From the human T2T-CHM13v2.0 reference genome, Homo sapiens: 64,000 nt of DNA. Numbering within the stretch: position 1 is the first letter of the stretch; the number at the start of each line of letters is the position of its first letter. A program made the translations under genes and the position numbers. Positions 11,121 to 63,357 of the stretch are shown here, piece after piece. The notes under the pieces are model-generated. The model saw only the letters and a list, made by a program, of their open reading frames with translations, was not told the DNA's origin and did no database searches. The DNA lies in assembly GCA_009914755.4 (NCBI GenBank), contig CP068257.2, positions 31,264,001 through 31,328,000 of the forward strand, in the 5' to 3' direction.

Positions 11121-12159
11121 CACCTGATTTTTGAGAACCTCCTCCACAGTGAATGCCCTGTAGTGAAGAAGGCATGAATATCCATGCCCATTCTAAGAGA
11201 TCCATCCACATACTCCCAGACCTCTTTATCATCAATTTTCAAGTCTTGTTCCAAGTCACTGACTGGCTAACCAATCCATCAGTCACTCACCATGGATTGG
11301 ACTGGATCTACACCTCTGGCCACCTTTCCTGATTGCTTCCTGGATCTGCATAGATATCAGCACCTCATCCTCAGCCTTCCTCACCGCCTGATTTTCAAGC
11401 TTTCTGGCCTAGGCTATGACCTCAGCTCAGATGTTGAATTTAAGTGTAAGCTTGCAGAGCAAAATAAACTAATGAGGATTCCCTGAGTAACAATGAGTGA
11501 ATAGGCAGGAGCCCAGTGGTGGGCTTGCAGATGGCTACCTTCTTTGCTGCGTCCTCACTTAGCCCCCATTCCCCAAAGCATGTGCCATAGGACCATCAGA
11601 AGCCAGCTGGCTCCCAAATGTTTAGAATCACTATAGGATCAAAGTCTCTTTACACTTTGCCCTCAACTTGAACTTTATCTCATGCCAGCACTGTTCATAA
11701 TTTGAGTAATAACACATCACAGTGTGCCACGGATTACCTGTGTGCCATTTCCCCTTGGCAAGATAGGTATTACGGGGCAATGCAAATAGATGAGCAACTA
11801 GTGGCTTGCTGGTAAGTGTTGAACAACTGATTCTTAAAAAGAAAGGAGGAAGGTGAGGAAGGTTAGAAAGGAAAGGAGGGAGAAAGGTAGGGAGGGGAGA
11901 AACAAAGAAAGAAACAAAAAAGAGAAAAGAAAGAAGCCCTCATTGGTAGCATTTGCAAATTTCTATGGTATAAATATTCCCTACTATGGCTGATTTCAAT
12001 CTACCAACATAATTTCACTGAACACGTAGTTGGAAAGAGATGTACACAGTCAGCTCTTGTAAGCCAGTCATAGCTGGCTCCAGCACACCACGTGGCTATC
12101 TCAATCTTCAGAGTCTGTTCTGAGGGTCTGTTTCCTGGGGCTACTCCTGGAACCCATTA

Positions 12160-12225
12160 CTGTATCAGTCAGGGACCTAGCAACAAATAGATGGCCCACT
12201 AATAGGGAGTAATTTGAGAAAATTT
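12160..12225 (+). mobile_element. 5' end of a solo LTR of the TGTATCAGTCAGGG family, running into an AT-rich expansion
   Basis: CTGTATCAGTCAGGGACCTAGCAACAAATAGATGG... corresponds to the LTR start and abuts the AT-rich block. Confidence 0.4.
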
Positions 12226-12785
12226 TAACAAAGTAATTATTTACAAATAGTATTTTATAATTATTTAATTATCAGTTAATTTAATAATTATTCATTATAA
12301 TTAATAATATATACAATGTATAATATATAAATTATATAATATATTTATTATAATTAATAATTATAGAAATATATTTTTATATTATATTGTATATATAGAT
12401 GTATAAAATATTTAATATATAAATTGCATATTATATAAAATTTAAATGAGATTTATAAGATATATAAATTAATTAATTATATTTATAATTTATAAGTATG
12501 CATTTATAAATTTATATACATTATTTATAATGTATATACTTAATTATTATCTTATTAATTATATAATTATATTATTAGTTGCCTAATTACACTTATATAA
12601 TTAATTTATATAGTTATATTTATATAATTATAACAAATATAACTATATAACTTATAATTATATTTTATCTATATATGGAAATATTTTATATATTATAACA
12701 TATAAATAGTATAATTATAATGAAAATATATGAAAATATAAATAATAAATAATTATTCATTTAATAACTATTTAATTATTATTTA
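12225..12785. repeat. About 560-bp AT-rich (TA-type) low-complexity block
   Basis: Near-exclusive A/T composition with degenerate TATAAT/ATTATA units, read directly. Confidence 0.9.
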
Positions 12786-55034: not shown

Positions 55035-57359
55035 AAACTAATTGTAACAAGTGGTTGCTGTGAAACGCAGGCTTCCGAAGGCTGCCCTTCCAGTGACCCA
55101 TACCCTGACCTGGACAGACCACCTTCTGTCCAAAAGAGGAAAAGTTTTGTTCTTAGATCAGATGAAACCCTGGCTTACCCCTGGTGACCAGCGGGATTAA
55201 TCAGACACCAGTAAAACAGCTGACAGAAACACTGAACCAACTCACAATAACCAGCACACACATCAGGCAGCATTCCTCTGCGGGGTCTTACCTCATCCCT
55301 TTCTTTTGCCCTGAGATGCAATCCCTGCTTCCTGAGGCCGTGTTCTCTGTGCTTCTTAAAGGGAGCCACTTGCAAGCTAAGAAGCTGCCCATTTTTAGGA
55401 TCAATATGGTATTCCCCCAAGTTGGTTAGAAAACACAATGGCAGGGACAGAATTTGCAGCAGGGGTTTGTAGAGGATTAGGGCTGCTTCGCCAGGATTTA
55501 TCGCCCCATGCACAACCCAGACTGAAACCCTGGTCGCAGTCTGGGTGGTTTAGAATGAGCCAACAGGCATTGCCATCAGTTTTAGGCCTTTGAAAAGTAA
55601 AATCTTCCCAACGTGCAAAAAGTAACCACTAAAAATGGACCATAACCAGATGCAAAGAAAGAATGAAAGATTGTGAAAGGAAAAAAAAATTCTGAAACTG
55701 TATTTGGAAGGTTCCTGCAGAAGGGGTCCTTCTGAAAGTATGCAGCAGGCTTCATAGCTTGCCCAACAGTCATGTACATTTCAGAATGTAACTTTCCAAA
55801 GCAAGTTGCTTCTTTGCTTTACTACCTGCAGAGAGCCACCTGCTTCATTTAATCGTGCTTTGGGTTCTGTTTTATTTTTACTGTATCCCATTTTCCAGGG
55901 CAAAAAGCAGAAAGCAAATAAAACCACATTTTTGCTACTAACTTAATATGAAATCTATTTTAATTCAGAATGATTTCCCTCCACTTTTATTTTAAAACAT
56001 GTTTAAGAAGAAAAGCAAGCTTAGAGGATTTCTGGTCCTAAATACAGCGATTTCAAGGATTGTTATCAAAACCCTGAAGGGCAGTGTTAAACAATGGGAT
56101 AACCTTGAAATATAGGATGGCTAAGAAGTGAGAGCAAAATATCACTCACTAGTGGCTATTTGTAACCAGAGTTATGCCAGGGAAGGGAGAAAGCAGTGAG
56201 AGCCGGCAATATTTGAGACGGAAAGAGATGACAGAGAAAGGTATCTTTAGCGAGGAAAGCATTTAGTGACTTTAAATCAGATGCCAAAAGAATATTTACT
56301 GGGGGAAAAATCAATTTTTCTGTGCTGTGGAGGAAGCATTTCAAAGTAAGACAACCTTTATTTCCAAATGCCTTCTGGAGGCCCTCCCCGGAGGACACAA
56401 CACCAACGCTATTAATCTTGACTTAGTGAATGAACGTATTATACGGATTTCAATCCAGATCTTCAAGTCTTAAAGAGTTCTGAAGAGCCCAGATAAAGCA
56501 ACCCGTTTTTCCTTTGGTGATTCCTCAGGGGTAACTCACTTTAATTCCCCTTTCATCTCTATGGGAGGACTCGGAACTTTAAAAGCAAACAGGTTTCCTA
56601 TACTAATTCCTGGAGAGAAGGCTTCTGTTGCTTTCTTGCTGCTGCGAGACTGAAGGTGGGTGACCATCTTCATTTGTTACCTTGGAAGATGTGGAGAACC
56701 AGAAGTAAGTTTGAAATAATAGGCCAACGGTAGCTGTCTCCTTTCTTCGAGGAAAGTTATTGCCCTTCCAAATGCCAGTTTGTTTTTTGATTTTCCACGG
56801 TCCAGCCCCGTATTTAACACAGAAAGATGCTTTAGAAGCCAGAACACTGATAATAACCCCAAATATACACAAAGACAAAGCAGAGGGCATGCCTGTTTTG
56901 TCCCGTCAGACAAATTATGATCTAAATTTTCTGCCAACACCACTTTTTTTCCCCTGATTGTTTATGGCAACAGCAGCCTGTTTATTGAGATTCTAAACTG
57001 CAATGAAATTTTCTGGGATTGAAAAAAAGAGAATAAGAGAGTTAGAGAGAGAGAGAAGGCTTATTATGTAGAAGTAAACTGTTTCAAATGGAAACCTGAC
57101 TCCCATTGTGGAAAGGGAAAGCATTGAGGAAAATTACGCCAGATTATCTAGGCTAAAGGAAAAATTTTATGCCTCACTGTGCCACTTGCAAGGAACAGGA
57201 GAGGAAAGAAAACACTAGAAACTGTGTGGCAACAAATGACTAAATTGGGATGCAGAGATAGCAGCCTTGCTAGGTTCAGTCCAACTTGTACAAGAATGGT
57301 AACAACCTAAGGCAGAGATATACCAACAATTATCTGTTACCCAGGGATTATATTAATAA

Positions 57360-57705
<346 letters not shown>

Positions 57706-59559
57706 ACTACATTTTGACATAAAGTCCGAAGACGGGACACAGGTCAGCACTTTTCATCCTAAAGGGTTATCAAAAGACATCAACTTGTATAAAAACTGGT
57801 GTGAAAATCGAGTGATGTTTTAGTTGATGTCATATGTTTTGTTCTCTCATGTGTCCAGATCCCGGAATAGGCTGAGAAAAATAGAACCTGGAGTGTAAAA
57901 AGAAAAAAGAAACATGTTAGTGGATATAGGACATTTTGCAGCTCTCAATTTGATCTGTTCCACAGTCGTCACACAGGATGAGAAGATTGTAGGAATGTGG
58001 AAAAAATTAGAATAACCTTGCATTTCGAGTTATGGAAAAGAAACTTTTAAGCTTTTAACATTTCTGTGAGAACAACATGAACCTGACAGCTAAATCACTG
58101 AAATATTGATCACATTACAAATAAAAATTCAAACAAATTCGTTTCAATTGAAAGAGGAAAAACATTGATACTACTACTGCTCATTGGTATGGTGATATGC
58201 AAATGTGGACTCCAATAAAGGAATTTGTCTAATTTTTGGACCACAATTATGTGAGGGAATATCAAAATGTTTATAATTTGCAACAACACAAGGATGTAGA
58301 TTTTGTCTGATTTTGTTAATCTCTGAAAGGCTTATTTTTGATGTGAATTAATTGGATAGTCTAATATGCTCCCTTTCAGCCCACCATAAATATCTGTGAA
58401 TTAAATTATGTAAACAGTTTCCTCAAAAGCAGAAGCATTGCTAACTCCCTTCCCCCGCATTAAATAGTTCTATATGAGTTGACAGAAGGAGTTGGCTGTG
58501 TGACCTTTCGCAATGAACGGGGAACATAGCCCCCTCTGGCCTGAATCTGAGAGAAGCCCCTTCCCAAAGCCCTTATGAGATGATATACCAGAAAACAACA
58601 CATCTGACCAAGAAGTCTCTGAAGTTGCAGCCTTTTGTATTTACACTTTTGAGCTATCTCCATTGTGATGCAAATCTCGATTTTCAATCAAAATTGGCTA
58701 GAAAAAAAAATCTTTCTCTGGAAACCGTTGTAGGAAGCACGTAAGCCTAAATCTTAAATTTTCTCTGTTCTGACTTCCTATTAAGCCACATAACAAATGT
58801 TATCAAACACATACACCTTTTGCAACTGCTGATTGAAAACTCAACCGTGTCAACTAGCATTTTTAACTAACTATAGTTTTAGTCTTAAAGGGTGCTGAGT
58901 TTATGCGTTATAAATGAACACCCCCCTCCCTTTTTTTTTCTCTCTAATTTGGGTGCTCACGTCAAAAGCATCTAAAAGCATTTTAACTTTTGTCGACTGT
59001 CCCAATTCAAGTTTGTTTGAGAGAGTCCTCCCTTCTTAGCTTGGATCCTTTATATAAGTCCAGATGAATAAAATAAAATGAAATGCAAAAGGAAGGCATC
59101 ATTAATGGCTTGAAGGCGTCCCACTTTTATTTTCTTGTATTTTAAGAGCTGAAGTTGGAAATATGGAATCCTCCCAAGCCGCTCAGAAAGTTTGAAGACA
59201 CAGGGGGCAGGGACCCAGACTTATGGAAGTCTCCGCCTCAGGCTGAAGGTTTGTGGGCGTCTGTGTGTGCGTGCGTCTGTCTTTTACTGTACCCTTCAAG
59301 ATCGAGTTCTGAAGGAGCATTTCTCCTGCCAAAATACACACACAGCCTGGGATTAAAAGGGCTGAAACCTACCAGCAAGTTCTTAACGCCCTCCCACAAT
59401 CATTAGACCAAATCCACCATCATTCCAGATTCATTTTTCCCTTATTCATCTGTCCAACTAATTCCTGCCACATTCACCAGGCTTATATCTTAATCTTTTC
59501 TGTTACATAGAGAATACATAATGAAAAGCTGCATTTTCTGGGTACATGCACACATTTGG

Positions 59560-59735
59560 AGCGGATGAACCATATGTGAAGCGACATACAATGCTGAATG
59601 CCGGCTGAATGGCGTCCAGCGCTAAAAACACCGCGAGCGCAGGAACAAAAAGCCGGCGAACAAGAGCCAGCGCCAGGCTTGCCTCTGCTGGAACACCAGG
59701 GGCTTCGCCGCGAAAACATGGGTATAATTTCACTG
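59560..59735. promoter_or_regulatory. CpG-dense core (about 14 CpG in 150 bp) followed by a TATAA motif; candidate promoter or orphan CpG-island-like element (hypothetical)
   Basis: GCGGATGAACCATATGTGAAGCGACATACAATGCTGAATGCCGGCTGAATGGCGTCCAGCGCTAAAAACACCGCGAGCGCAGGAACAAAAAGCCGGCGAACAAGAGCCAGCGCCAGGCTTGCCTCTGCTGGAACACCAGGGGCTTCGCCGCGAAAACATGGGTATAATTTCAC. Local observed/expected CpG is about 1, against roughly 1 CpG per 100 bp elsewhere in the window. Confidence 0.3.
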
Positions 59736-60878
59736 TTTTCACTCACACAAGCTGTGGGAAAGGAGTCACCATCTGATGTTTGATTGTGTGGGATATGTTT
59801 TTGGCAGTGGCCTTGTATTCCTCATTGACAAAAAAAAAGAAAAGAAAGAAAGAAACAAGAGAAAAGGGGCAGAGATGGAGGGGGGAGGAAAATAAAAAAG
59901 AATAGAGCTACATTTGCTGTTTTCAATTTGCAGTCTGGGGGACAGGCACAGCTGACAGTTCTGACCAGTGGCCACCTGAAAATCAGGGCCAGGGCCTGGG
60001 GACTGTCCCCTCTGCCTCCATCCCCTGGGCCTCCCTTTATGCCGAGGGACCAGGAGGGGACTTTTCTCCATCCTCCCCCGTCGGCTGGTTAACTTACGAC
60101 TGAGCTGTGGGGCTGACGTTTGCCTGATTTAATAAAGCCTTTTATCCAAGGTAGCGGCTGGGAAGGCAGGGTCCTGACAGCCCAGAGGGGGAAAGGGCCC
60201 AAGGCTCACAAGCAGACACTTTCCGGAGCCGGTGAGGAAAAGAGTGAAGCTTCAAAAAAACTCCCTGGCAATGCGTCTGGGGCTGAAGCCAGGTGGTTTC
60301 TCCCGTGGTTTCTGGCTGGAGACTGGCAGGGGTGTTAGGTTTACACCCTGGGTCTCTGCCCCAACCGAAGGTTCTAGAAAGAGATATGCTGCTCTTTGTC
60401 ACCATCTTTTCCTCACTCAGGAATGCCAGATTTAGCAAGTAAACATACAGGATGCCCAGCTACATTTGGATTTCAGAACAACAAGTACTAAGCCGTGATG
60501 TGCTGTTTCCCCAAAAGCCAATTTTCACTGAGTGTCTTGCACGTTATCTGACAATGCTACTCCCACGCCACCAGGCTTCCTGGTCCAGCCACCCACCTCC
60601 CCTCACCTGTGGCGGGTGGGCAGGGGGGCGGTGATCAACAGCCTCCTCTGCCTGCATCTCAGGATGTTAAGAGGATAATGAGAGAATAGATGGGTAGCTG
60701 CTTTCCAGAAAGGTCATTAATTAGCCCTGCTGGTTAGCATGTGGTTCCAGTGCCCCAGCTGTGCTAAAGGCCTTCCTCTTAGCATCCAGTTCAAACCAGG
60801 AGACATGACCAATGAGACTAGAGAGAGTTTGGTGTCATTTCCTCCTGGTGCCCAGAGCCCCTTCTCTGATGGGTTTCA

Positions 60879-61210
<332 letters not shown>

Positions 61211-62337
61211 CAATAAATTGAAATAAAACTCCCCAGTTCAGCACCTCTTGCTTTTACTAGAGGCAAATATAGTGTTTAATGGAAGATGTGGGGAGAAAGC
61301 CACATCCTTTCTAATCAAGTGCTCCTACTCCCGGGGATATTGGATTGCTACCTTTGAGTACAGTGCTTGCTAAGAAGCTGGTAACACCTAGTTGGCCTCC
61401 AGGATTTGTCTTGAGGTGGGCACCTTGCCTTGAGTTCCCCATTTGTAGGCCTGTGAAGCATATCTGGTTAAAGGCAGAGAGAAAGAAAAGGTTTCCCTTT
61501 GTGAGTAGCAGGCAAGTGACCAGGACAAATCGCATTGGCAGCCAGAGCCAGGGTCTGTGCTGTCATTTATCCTCCAGGTGGGGAGGTGGGATCAGGCACC
61601 GGCTTTAAAAGGAGGTGGTGTTCTGCACCAACCGGGTCCAAGCCCTAAAGAGAAGATGTCAAAGGAGCACTGCTCTTTTGAATATTCCCTTCACTGGAAG
61701 ACAGTCGTGGCTGCATATATTGGCCGGGACTAGAAGTGTGGTTTTCCCCATGTGGCGGAATTGCTTTCATTTTCAAACATGGGCCAGGGGCATAATGGCC
61801 GCTTGTAATGATCACATTAGCATCATGGAGCAATATATCTACAATAAATTAAGACTGCTTTGCAATTAGTACCGATGATCACAGCTGCGGAGACAAATGG
61901 CATATGTGCTAATTAAATAATTTGTCACTTCACTGTTAAACAAACAATTCAGCCTCTTTATATTACAAACTGCCATCTCCAGAACATCACCATGGGCCAT
62001 TAACCCCGTGGAAGGAACAGCTTGCCATGCCCACAATTGGTGGGGAGCGATGTTTGAATGGCAGGAAAAAGGTGATGGGGAAAAATCCACTTGGATGACA
62101 AGTCCCCTCAGACTTTGAAAATTTTCTTGGAAAATGAGTTCCAGGAGGACAAAACAAACTCTGCCACTCCACTCAGAAAACATTTGGAAGATAGCCCACT
62201 CCAGTGTTAAGATTTCTGAGCTCTATTCGATGTGCCCTTATTGAAGTGAACCATCAAACTGGTTGCAACCAATAAAAACTCCATCACGTCAAATCTCAAC
62301 TTCATCTGGTGACTTCAGCGAAAGTCCCTCCTCCCCA

Positions 62338-62395
62338 TTTGTACAGTTTTTCTTTTGTACAGATTTTGTACATACCTTTGTACAGTTTTTCTTTT
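62338..62395. repeat. Short tandem repeat of the unit TTTGTACAG (4 copies with spacers)
   Basis: TTTGTACAGTTTTTCTTTTGTACAGATTTTGTACATACCTTTGTACAGTTTTTCTTTTC read directly. Confidence 0.7.
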
Positions 62396-63357
62396 CTTTC
62401 TTTAAGTTTTAGCATTTCCTACCCCAAATGCTAATCCATAAAGCTGAATTGTGAACTAGGGTTTAATGGGGGCCAGCCATTGCTAGCCTATATAATGGCT
62501 TTGTGTGAACTAAGAGGACTCAGCTCTGTGCAGGGCACCAGTCTTGGTAAGCAAGGTGCAGGCTGGATTTGCGTCCCTGCTCACCGCCTTGGTCCAGGGC
62601 CCTTGTGCAGTGAACAACCTGTCCAACCACACAGGCAGCTCTGACTCACTTGCCTCTGAAACCAGGAGAGACCTGGGTAATTTAAAGCCACAGAACACTA
62701 GCAAGTCATGTGTCATTATTATCCTTTATTCCTTGCTCTTTTATCAGAGTTGTTAACTAATGGAACTTGATTTCTCCTTCTTATTCCTGCGCTCGCTCCC
62801 ATACAAGAGGCAGAATGGTCAGACAGAGAGAGAAAGGCAAGGCAGTGAGGACTTCTTGTCATTGGCCCTTCAGCAAATCCCTCATCAGGCACCGCCTTTG
62901 TAAGGAGCATGTGACACGGGTGGTGTTGAGTAGAAGGCATTTGTGATGTAACAGGTGTTTGGTGTAAAATACTCAGGCAGTGTTAAGTTCCACCAAAGTC
63001 ATTCTACTGCAGTAAATTTCTACCAGGCAGGAAACAGCTAGAAACAAGGTTGAGTGTTCAGTCTTCCTTCCTGCAGGAAAGGTGATTCCCTGGATAATTT
63101 CACATTAGGCTTTAAGAGCTCCTTTCCTGTGGCATTGTGGGGGTGGAAAAAGAAAAGCCAGTCTTTTATCTTTATGGAAATCTCACTGTTCGGATACAAA
63201 AGTCTGTAATAGAGGTGAGTTCCTCAGCAAATTGGTGCGTTACTCACCAAAAAGCCATTCTGTCTCTTTTTTAAAGTGAAATCTGAGTTTATCCCAGAAA
63301 GACTGGGGCATGGAGCAGCTTAGCTCACATCACTTAGGATAAAGGTGGGCACACTCT

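What the first reader, a model, noticed from the sequence alone, without database searches (positions are those of the whole stretch)
61300..62300. Dense homeodomain/forkhead-like motif cluster in unique sequence: candidate developmental enhancer
Within about 250 bp the sequence reads GCTTGTAATGATCACATTAGCATCATGGAGCAATATATCTACAATAAATTAAGACTGCTTTGCAATTAGTACCGATGATCACAGCTGCGGAGACAAATGGCATATGTGCTAATTAAATAATTTGTCACTTCACTGTTAAACAAACAATTCAGCC...CATTAACCCCGTGG...CACAATTGGTGG.
- There are multiple TAAT/ATTA cores.
- CAATTA and TAATTA appear as palindromes.
- A TGTTTAC-like forkhead-type site is present.
- CpGs are retained (ACCGATG, GCTGCGG, CCCCGTGG).

This is the sequence texture of ultraconserved limb, brain or craniofacial enhancers.
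Basis: inference. Interest (0 to 1): 0.5.

Follow-up and report, generated by a model that had tools for sequence, protein, structure and literature searches.

The report
Deeply conserved non-coding enhancer-like element
About 200 bases inside the flagged kilobase are a real, deeply conserved non-coding element packed with transcription-factor motifs, most likely a developmental enhancer in a small cluster of such elements; this is a well-known and ordinary kind of feature in vertebrate genomes.

Summary
The quoted sequence is at 61801-62043 in single-copy primate DNA next to an Alu. TAAT/ATTA cores are about twice as frequent as in shuffles (10 vs 4.5, p~0.01). The forkhead, SOX and E-box counts are not above chance. 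Two of the three "retained" CpGs are not conserved.

The decisive result is conservation. I recovered orthologous DNA from 12 unidentified animals by searching a spurious ORF over the element. The 140-bp core (61846-61985) is:
- 139/140 identical in two monkeys;
- 119-135/140 in five non-primate-like mammals;
- 127/140 in a distant group, probably birds, where only islands align.

Flanks fall to background (63-68% in mammal contigs, ~37% in the distant group).

It is not coding: stops in five frames, no codon periodicity, a 1-bp indel. It is not a structured RNA: fold z-scores +0.7 and +0.3, no Rfam hit. It is also not "ultraconserved", since the longest exact run with any non-primate is 75 bp.

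It lies colinear with three more islands, including a stronger ~560-bp one at 59282-59844.

Best reading: a distal cis-regulatory element bound by homeodomain, bHLH, TALE and FOX/SOX factors, probably neural. The target gene, the tissue and the activity itself are untested. This is an ordinary member of a well-catalogued class.

The parts
61846..61985 (.). Deep core of the conserved non-coding element (140 bp, 35.7% GC)
   Evidence: Identity to the window is 139/140 (L001, L002), 134-135/140 (L005, L004), 131/140 (L003), 119/140 (L014) and 127/140 (L006-L008). Binomial P against local background is 1e-20 for L005 and 6e-40 for L016. The best 50-bp window is 49/50 against the distant group. The core is AT-rich with GC-richer flanks.
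61788..62031 (.). Full block that still aligns to the distant (bird-like) contigs
   Evidence: blastn gives 82-86% over 215-244 bp to L006, L007, L008-L013 and L016. In mammal contigs the 61800-62000 bins are 92-100% identical.
61862..61869 (.). GCAATTAG, a homeodomain-type CAATTA site, within the block GACTGCTTTGCAATTAG (invariant except in L014)
   Evidence: Identical in all 12 sequences.
61882..61887 (.). CAGCTG E-box (bHLH-type site). The adjacent base 61888 is T>C in the window, shared only by L014 in a different context.
   Evidence: The E-box is identical in all 12 sequences. At 61887-61890 the window has GCGG, 10 others have GTGG and L014 has GCCG.
61894..61906 (.). CAAATGGCATATG: two more E-boxes (CAAATG and CATATG)
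   Evidence: Identical in 11 of 12 sequences; only L014 differs. Lies inside the 42-bp exact run 61889-61930 shared with the distant group.
61909..61927 (.). CTAATTAAATAATTTGTCA: palindromic TAATTA homeodomain site, ATAATT, and a TGTCA TALE-type (MEIS/TGIF) core
   Evidence: 61910-61921 is the longest run invariant in all 12 sequences, and TGTCA is invariant in all 12.
61926..61933 (.). CACTTCAC. In every non-primate sequence it reads CACTTGAC, an NKX2-type TCAAGTG on the other strand. The G>C change is specific to primates.
   Evidence: Window, L001 and L002 have C; all nine others have G. The assignment to NKX2 is from my knowledge of the consensus and is not tested.
61936..61948 (-). TTAAACAAACAAT: forkhead-like core (TGTTTGT; TGTTTGC in the distant group) overlapping a SOX-like AACAAT
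   Evidence: CAAACA is kept in all 12 sequences and AACAAT in 11 of 12. The count is not above chance in shuffles.
59282..59844 (.). Neighbouring, stronger conserved non-coding element in the same cluster
   Evidence: About 92% identity over 557-564 bp to L006, L016 and L017, and 91% over 583 bp to L022. Exact runs reach about 95-100 bp. Stops in all six frames, and two compensating 1-bp indels.
58561..58763 (.). Third conserved island, colinear with the others
   Evidence: 77-78% over 211 bp to L006, L016 and L017.
56676..56922 (.). Fourth conserved island, colinear with the others
   Evidence: 77-78% over about 247 bp to L006, L016 and L017.

Best explanation
Window 61788-62031, with a 140-bp core at 61846-61985, is a conserved non-coding element under strong purifying selection. 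It most likely acts as a distal transcriptional enhancer.

Proposed mechanism (inferred): the core is a tightly packed array of binding sites. These are homeodomain sites (CAATTA, TAATTA, AATTAA), three E-boxes for bHLH factors (CAGCTG, CAAATG, CATATG), a TALE-type TGTCA, an NKX2-type CACTTGAC (altered in primates) and an overlapping forkhead/SOX site. Several factors would bind side by side, which explains why almost every base is constrained rather than only isolated motifs. Together with the neighbouring islands at 59.3-59.8, 58.6-58.8 and 56.7-56.9 kb, it would belong to the regulatory landscape of a developmental regulator gene lying outside this window. The motif mix points to the nervous system as the most likely tissue.

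Shown here: the sequence, its uniqueness, the motif content, the depth and sharpness of conservation, colinear clustering, and the absence of coding or RNA-structure signals.

Inferred, not shown: factor binding, enhancer activity, tissue and target gene.
For: **Conservation**
- The peak is sharply bounded. The 61800-62000 bins are 92-100% identical in five contigs, while flanks drop to 30-70%.
- Core identity is 119-139/140 in ten other contigs (L019 and L016 agree).
- The core is far above local background of 63-68% (mammal contigs) and 37% (distant group), with P = 1e-20 and 6e-40.
- The distant group comprises at least five species. They are 86-89% identical to each other over whole 5-13 kb contigs, but align to the window only at four colinear islands.
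- Two contigs found through the neighbouring island, so not selected for the focal element, both carry it at the expected place (L016 and L019).

**Rivals excluded**
- Stops in five of six frames across the block.
- Variable columns by codon position are 14/14/10, and L014 has a 1-bp deletion.
- The upstream part of the only open frame is not conserved.
- Fold z-scores are +0.74 and +0.28.
- Rfam hits occur only in the adjacent Alu.

**Motifs and composition**
- TAAT cores number 10 against 4.5 expected.
- The homeodomain, E-box and TGTCA sites are invariant or nearly so in 12 sequences.
- The core is AT-rich (35.7% GC) with flanks at 44-50% GC.

**Literature**
- Conserved non-coding elements typically act as developmental enhancers, are AT-rich with a drop in AT content outside their boundaries, and are enriched in TAATTA (PMC5728398).
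- Arrayed TAATTA motifs with nearby NKX2.1, PBX, FOX and SOX motifs in a conserved core mark deeply conserved forebrain enhancers (PMC10327028).
- About 50% of VISTA-tested elements are positive, mostly in brain, limb or heart, and conserved elements lean towards brain (PMC11701537).
Against: - No functional data of any kind could be consulted: no chromatin marks, factor binding or reporter assays.
- About half of tested candidates in VISTA show no reproducible activity at the stage assayed (PMC11701537).
- Apart from TAAT cores, no motif class is individually more frequent than in shuffles. All motif-to-factor assignments come from consensus strings I recalled, not from matrix scans.
- The species behind the orthologous contigs are unidentified. 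SINE and CR1 checks were uninformative, so 'birds' is an inference.
- No fish or amphibian copy was found.
- The target gene is unknown. The window has no exon I could recognise and no CpG island other than a young Alu.
Confidence: 0.65

Rival explanations
1. A constrained cis-acting element that is not a classical activating enhancer. Candidates are a silencer, a tethering or boundary element, or a site that organises chromatin within the regulatory domain.
For: Conservation and clustering show constraint but say nothing about the sign or type of activity. Reviews note that known enhancer function does not fully explain such extreme conservation (PMC5728398; abstracts of PMC6730951 and PMC3826495).
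Against: The invariant bases coincide with activator-type homeodomain, bHLH, FOX and SOX motifs. I saw no CTCF-like motif in the conserved core on reading it, though this was not formally scanned. Most tested elements of this kind behave as enhancers (PMC5728398).
Confidence: 0.15
2. Part of a non-coding transcript, either a long non-coding RNA exon or a very long untranslated region. Its primary sequence would be constrained, for example by protein or microRNA binding sites.
For: This cannot be excluded from DNA alone. AU-rich conserved blocks do occur in untranslated regions of developmental regulators (my knowledge).
Against: - No thermodynamic structure signal on either strand.
- No Rfam family at E<=1 outside the Alu.
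- No coding exon recognisable in the window or in 10-13 kb of the compact distant-group contigs.
- Conservation comes as discrete islands separated by unalignable DNA and an Alu.
Confidence: 0.08
3. Protein-coding exon on the minus strand (the open frame 61866-62183).
For: This frame is open in the window and in the contigs found through it.
Against: - The open frames were the means of discovery, so their presence is an ascertainment effect.
- Conservation continues 70-80 bp past the stop codon, where all frames are closed.
- The part upstream of the conserved block is unrelated between species.
- There is no third-position excess of variation (14/14/10), and L014 has a 1-bp deletion.
- No Pfam domain is on record for any of the products.
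Confidence: 0.01
4. No function: a local mutational cold spot or a chance similarity.
For: None specific to this element.
Against: - Identity of 127/140 holds where the surrounding DNA is unalignable, at P about 1e-22 even against the best flanking bin.
- The same sharp boundaries recur in independent lineages.
- Four islands keep their order and spacing.
Confidence: 0.03

Closest known systems
Vertebrate conserved non-coding elements (CNEs) clustered in genomic regulatory blocks around developmental genes
   Same: - Non-coding and single-copy.
- A sharply bounded identity peak, 49/50 in the best window against a very distant group.
- An AT-rich core with GC-richer flanks, and enrichment of TAAT/TAATTA.
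- Clustered colinearly with other islands over about 5.4 kb, as described in PMC5728398.
   Different: The anchoring developmental gene and the extent of the cluster could not be determined from this window. Depth beyond the bird-like group (frog, fish) is unknown.
Deeply conserved, TAATTA-anchored, broadly bound forebrain enhancers (cluster 1_D of PMC10327028) and VISTA-type brain enhancers
   Same: Several homeodomain sites lie close together, including a symmetric TAATTA. They sit beside NKX2-type, TALE, forkhead and SOX motifs inside a conserved core of about 200 bp.
   Different: There are only one perfect TAATTA and two related sites, against roughly four per element in that class. E-boxes are prominent here. 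No binding or activity data exist for this element, so the tissue is a guess.
Ultraconserved elements (at least 200 bp identical in human, mouse and rat)
   Same: The same general kind of sequence and the same genomic setting.
   Different: Exact runs with non-primate contigs are 16-75 bp. Window-only or primate-only changes at 61888, 61931 and 61961 break the core, so a 200-bp exact match to any rodent is practically excluded.

Membership tests
Conserved non-coding element (CNE) | Not protein-coding | tested here: met
   Stops in five of six frames across the block. Codon-position variation is 14/14/10, and L014 has a 1-bp deletion. The upstream part of the only open frame is not conserved.
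Conserved non-coding element (CNE) | Identity between distant vertebrates above the usual thresholds (for example at least 70% over 100 bp, or at least 45-49 of 50) | tested here: met
   82-86% over 215-244 bp and 49/50 in the best window against the distant group, whose flanking DNA does not align. Caveat: the species are unidentified, and 'birds' is an inference.
Conserved non-coding element (CNE) | Clustering with other such elements in conserved order | tested here: met
   Four colinear islands span 56676-62031 in the window. They span 4.5 kb in L006 and L016.
Conserved non-coding element (CNE) | Location near or within a developmental regulator gene | not testable with these tools
   No vertebrate genome annotation is available. 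No exon or CpG island was found in the window, and the sequence strings were not found in papers.
Ultraconserved element (Bejerano definition) | At least 200 bp with 100% identity between human, mouse and rat | tested here: not met
   The longest exact run with any non-primate contig is 75 bp (L005); the others are 16-47 bp. Derived bases at 61888 (window), 61931 and 61961 (primates) differ from all nine non-primate sequences (61888: from eight of the nine, L014 also has C). Mouse and rat themselves were not identified among the contigs.
Developmental enhancer (VISTA type) | Reproducible tissue-specific reporter activity in transgenic embryos | not testable with these tools
   This needs an experiment or the VISTA catalogue. 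About 50% of tested elements are positive (PMC11701537).
Developmental enhancer (VISTA type) | Enhancer chromatin signature (open chromatin, H3K27ac, p300) | not testable with these tools
   No epigenomic data are available here.
Developmental enhancer (VISTA type) | Cluster of conserved transcription-factor motifs | tested here: met
   TAAT cores number 10 against 4.5 expected, p about 0.011. Homeodomain, E-box and TALE cores are invariant in 11-12 of 12 sequences. Other motif classes are not individually enriched.
Structured non-coding RNA | Stable or conserved secondary structure, or a match to a known family | tested here: not met
   z-scores are +0.74 and +0.28. There is no Rfam match at the gathering score, nor at E<=1 outside the Alu. 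There are too few substitutions for a covariation test.
Human accelerated region | Excess of lineage-specific substitutions in an otherwise conserved element | tested here: not met
   In 140 bp there is one window-specific change (61888) and two primate-wide changes (61931, 61961). L005 has three changes of its own on its lineage. No formal rate test was possible without a species tree.

The most novel reading that the evidence does not exclude
Two derived changes hit otherwise invariant bases in the core. One is the primate-wide G>C at 61931, which abolishes a CACTTGAC (NKX2-type) site kept in all nine non-primate sequences. The other is the T>C at 61888 (seen otherwise only in L014, in a different context), directly flanking the invariant CAGCTG E-box. 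Together they could have altered the activity of this enhancer in primates or in the human lineage, giving a lineage-specific regulatory change in a deeply conserved element.
Probability: 0.08. Interest if true: 0.5.

Novelty: already known. Interest (0 to 1): 0.25.

Why it matters
Elements of this kind control when and where developmental regulator genes are expressed, and variants or deletions in them can cause congenital disease. Here the value is confirmatory. Nothing about the element departs from the well-described class. Conservation tracks and enhancer catalogues of the human genome almost certainly already list it, although I could not check that here.

Tried and rejected
- **Rfam.** A whole-window scan at gathering score and a permissive scan of 59-62.5 kb gave only Alu-derived sub-threshold hits.
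- **RNA folding** of both strands showed no stability signal.
- **Coding hypothesis** was rejected.
- **Locus identification** failed. No ORF of 110 aa or more looked genic. The only CpG-island-like stretch is a young AluY. Six 20-24-mers from the two elements occur in no paper in the library.
- **Naming the species behind the contigs** failed. Consensus SINEs written from memory (B1, B2, carnivore, pig and ruminant SINEs, MIR) hit nothing except an Alu in L002. CR1 3'-end repeats are absent. The long ORFs in L016 look spurious.
- **Deeper orthologues.**
  - An exhaustive HMMER search of 1.84 billion representative proteins with the core's open frame added only three further clusters.
  - A degenerate 27-mer scan of GTDB genomes gave nothing.
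  - No fish or amphibian copy was found. This is absence of evidence only, because the collections hold animal DNA only as contamination.
- **Third protein search.** I did not use it, because the expected gain was small for its cost.
- **Paralogues or a transposon origin:** there is no second copy in the window.

Full report
**Setting.** The window is primate, human-like non-coding DNA.
- It carries about 25 Alu copies, one of them 98.7% identical to an AluY consensus.
- It has no CpG island other than that Alu, no Rfam family at gathering score and no ORF that looks genic.
- The flagged kilobase begins just right of an Alu at 60916-61205.

**Observation.**
- The quoted strings are exactly there, at 61801-61954, 61998-62011 and 62032-62043. 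The feature therefore occupies about 250 bp of the 1000 flagged.
- In 61790-62040 there are 10 TAAT/ATTA cores, against 4.5 +/- 1.9 in 2000 dinucleotide-preserving shuffles; 1.1% of shuffles reach 10.
- YAATTR sites are marginal (3 against 0.8, p = 0.05).
- Forkhead (1 against 1.3), SOX and E-box counts (4 against 2.1) are not individually above chance.
- The block is single-copy in the window.
- TAATTA is a palindrome and CAATTA is not.
- CpG observed/expected is 0.40.

**Getting orthologues without a vertebrate genome database.** A spurious open frame (61866-62183, minus strand) overlaps the block.
- Searching its translation in the large protein collection returned five ORF calls from metagenome or SRA assemblies.
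- An exhaustive HMMER search of representatives added three more clusters.
- The encoding contigs were fetched.
- One exact 20-mer scan of JGI metagenomes added a 15-kb contig.
- A second ORF search, over a neighbouring island, gave contigs that were not selected for the focal element.
- These contigs are host DNA of unidentified animals.

**Three tiers of divergence.**

| Tier | Contigs | Similarity to the window | Reading |
|---|---|---|---|
| 1 | L001, L002 | 92% identical over 2.1-2.3 kb; L002 ends in Alu sequence where the window has its Alu | Monkeys |
| 2 | L019, L005, L004, L003, L014/15 | Align through the flanks at about 50-80% and carry no detectable Alu | Non-primate-like mammals of varying rate |
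| 3 | L006, L007, L008-13, L016, L017/18 | Align only at islands 62031-61788, 59844-59282, 58763-58561 and 56922-56676, in the same order and similar spacing | Probably birds or other sauropsids |

Tier 3 comprises at least five species. They are 86-89% identical to each other over whole 5-13 kb contigs. The bird assignment rests on my knowledge of how little of the human genome aligns to chicken. It is an inference, because the SINE and CR1 checks were uninformative.

**Conservation profile.**
- In 50-bp bins, identity in 61800-62000 is 92-100% in the first five contigs, while flanks fall to 30-70%.
- In 100-bp bins over 59200-62800 there are two peaks, at 59300-59800 and 61800-62000. They stand over a background of 63-68% in tier 2 and 37% in tier 3.
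- The 140-bp core 61846-61985 is 139/140 (tier 1), 119-135/140 (tier 2) and 127/140 (tier 3) identical to the window.
- Binomial P against local background is 1e-20 for L005 and 6e-40 for L016. Even against the best flanking bin the values are 2e-10 and 4e-22.
- The best 50-bp window against tier 3 is 49/50, and the longest exact run is 42 bp (61889-61930, GGAGACAAATGGCATATGTGCTAATTAAATAATTTGTCACTT).
- Exact runs with tier-2 contigs are 16-75 bp. This is a conserved non-coding element, not an ultraconserved one.
- L016 and L019, found through the neighbouring island, both carry the focal element where expected.

- Invariant in all 12 sequences: GCAATTAG, CAGCTG and TGTCA.
- Kept in 11 of 12: CAAATG, CATATG, CTAATTAA, ATAATTTG and AACAAT.
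- The forkhead-like CAAACA core is kept in all 12. It reads TGTTTGT in mammals and TGTTTGC in tier 3.
TAATGATCACATTA holds only in closer mammals, and CACAATTGG only in primates.
- The CpG in GCTGCGG arises from a T>C at 61888; ten of the other 11 sequences have TG, and L014 reads GCCG.
- CCCCGTGG varies even in monkeys.
- A primate-wide G>C at 61931 turns CACTTGAC into CACTTCAC. All nine non-primates keep CACTTGAC, which is an NKX2-type TCAAGTG on the other strand by the consensus as I know it.
- The core is AT-rich (35.7% GC) between flanks of 44-50% GC. This is the compositional signature described for such elements (PMC5728398).

**Rivals.**
- *Coding.* Five of six frames are closed across the block, and conservation runs 70-80 bp beyond the stop of the sixth. 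The part of that frame upstream of the block is unrelated between species. Variable columns fall 14/14/10 on codon positions 1/2/3, and L014 has a 1-bp deletion. Rejected.
- *Structured RNA.* Minimum free energies are no better than shuffles on either strand, with z-scores of +0.74 and +0.28. A permissive Rfam scan finds only Alu-derived sub-threshold hits. There are too few substitutions for a covariation test. Unlikely.
- *Unstructured transcript or untranslated region.* This cannot be excluded from DNA. However, there is no exon nearby in the window or in 10-13 kb of the compact tier-3 contigs.
- *Mutational cold spot.* This would need population data. The sharp shared boundaries in independent lineages argue against it.

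**Mechanism.** The best-supported reading is a distal cis-regulatory element, most likely an enhancer.
- Its core would be a contiguous platform for homeodomain, bHLH, TALE, NKX2, forkhead and SOX factors.
- It would act with the neighbouring islands on a developmental regulator gene outside the window.
- Literature support: conserved non-coding elements typically function as developmental enhancers and are enriched in TAATTA (PMC5728398). Arrayed TAATTA motifs beside NKX2.1, PBX, FOX and SOX motifs in a conserved core of about 200 bp mark deeply conserved forebrain enhancers (PMC10327028). About half of VISTA-tested elements are positive, mostly in brain, limb or heart, with conserved elements leaning to brain (PMC11701537).
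- Binding, activity, tissue and target are inferred, not shown.
- My confidence is about 0.65 for an enhancer and about 0.9 for 'constrained non-coding cis-acting DNA'.

**Verdict.** Its limits are as follows:
- it is imprecise in extent;
- it is wrong on CpG retention;
- it is too strong on 'ultraconserved';
- it is untestable here on function.

The element is an ordinary member of a thoroughly catalogued class, so interest is low to moderate. The strongest feature in the neighbourhood is the unflagged island of about 560 bp at 59282-59844.

Noticed in passing
window 59282-59844: A larger and more strongly conserved non-coding island lies 2 kb left of the finding. It is about 92% identical over 557-564 bp to the distant (bird-like) contigs L006, L016 and L017, with exact runs of about 95-100 bp (for example 59487-59581). 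All six frames have stops. The CpG-rich middle part (59590-59720) keeps CpGs in the window that are TG/CA in L006. A 79-aa ORF (59503-59742, minus strand) is 'preserved' in L006 only because two 1-bp indels compensate, so it is not coding.
   Followed up: partly
window 58561-58763 and 56676-56922: Two further islands are 77-78% identical to the distant contigs. They are colinear with the other two, so the right end of the window holds a cluster of four conserved elements in 5.4 kb. The 7-9 kb of L016 and L017 beyond the last island match nothing in the window.
   Followed up: partly
window 61888, 61931, 61961: Three derived substitutions sit in otherwise invariant columns of the core. T>C at 61888 is seen in the window (and, in a different context, in L014). 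G>C at 61931 and C>T at 61961 are shared by the window and both monkey contigs. The 61931 change removes a CACTTGAC site kept in all nine non-primate sequences.
   Followed up: partly
window 60916-61205: An old Alu (74% identical to an AluY consensus) lies between the two main conserved islands. L002 (monkey) ends in Alu sequence at the matching position, while no Alu is detectable in L019 and L005. Sub-threshold Rfam hits to SRP RNA, mir-3135 and mir-1268 all lie inside this Alu.
   Followed up: yes
It is the only CpG-island-like stretch in the window.
   Followed up: no
window ~12100-12700: An extremely AT-rich low-complexity stretch (GC 6-17%), with up to 31 TAAT/ATTA cores per 250 bp. This shows that raw TAAT density alone does not mark enhancers.
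   Followed up: no
L014/L015 (runs SRR28256911, SRR28256706) and L021 (SRR28256722): These contigs have neighbouring run numbers, so they may come from the same project and host. They show the most diverged mammalian copy of the focal core: 119/140, with a 1-bp deletion and a 3-bp insertion. The neighbouring island is still 85% identical over about 950 bp. The focal element may be under relaxed constraint in that fast-evolving lineage, possibly a rodent.
   Followed up: no
method: Spurious ORF calls over conserved non-coding elements are present in the metagenome and SRA protein collection as host contamination. They can be used to pull orthologous vertebrate DNA when no vertebrate genome database is at hand. 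No copy identical to the window's ORF was returned (the best hit was 95% identical), so the window's own species may be absent from the collection.
   Followed up: yes
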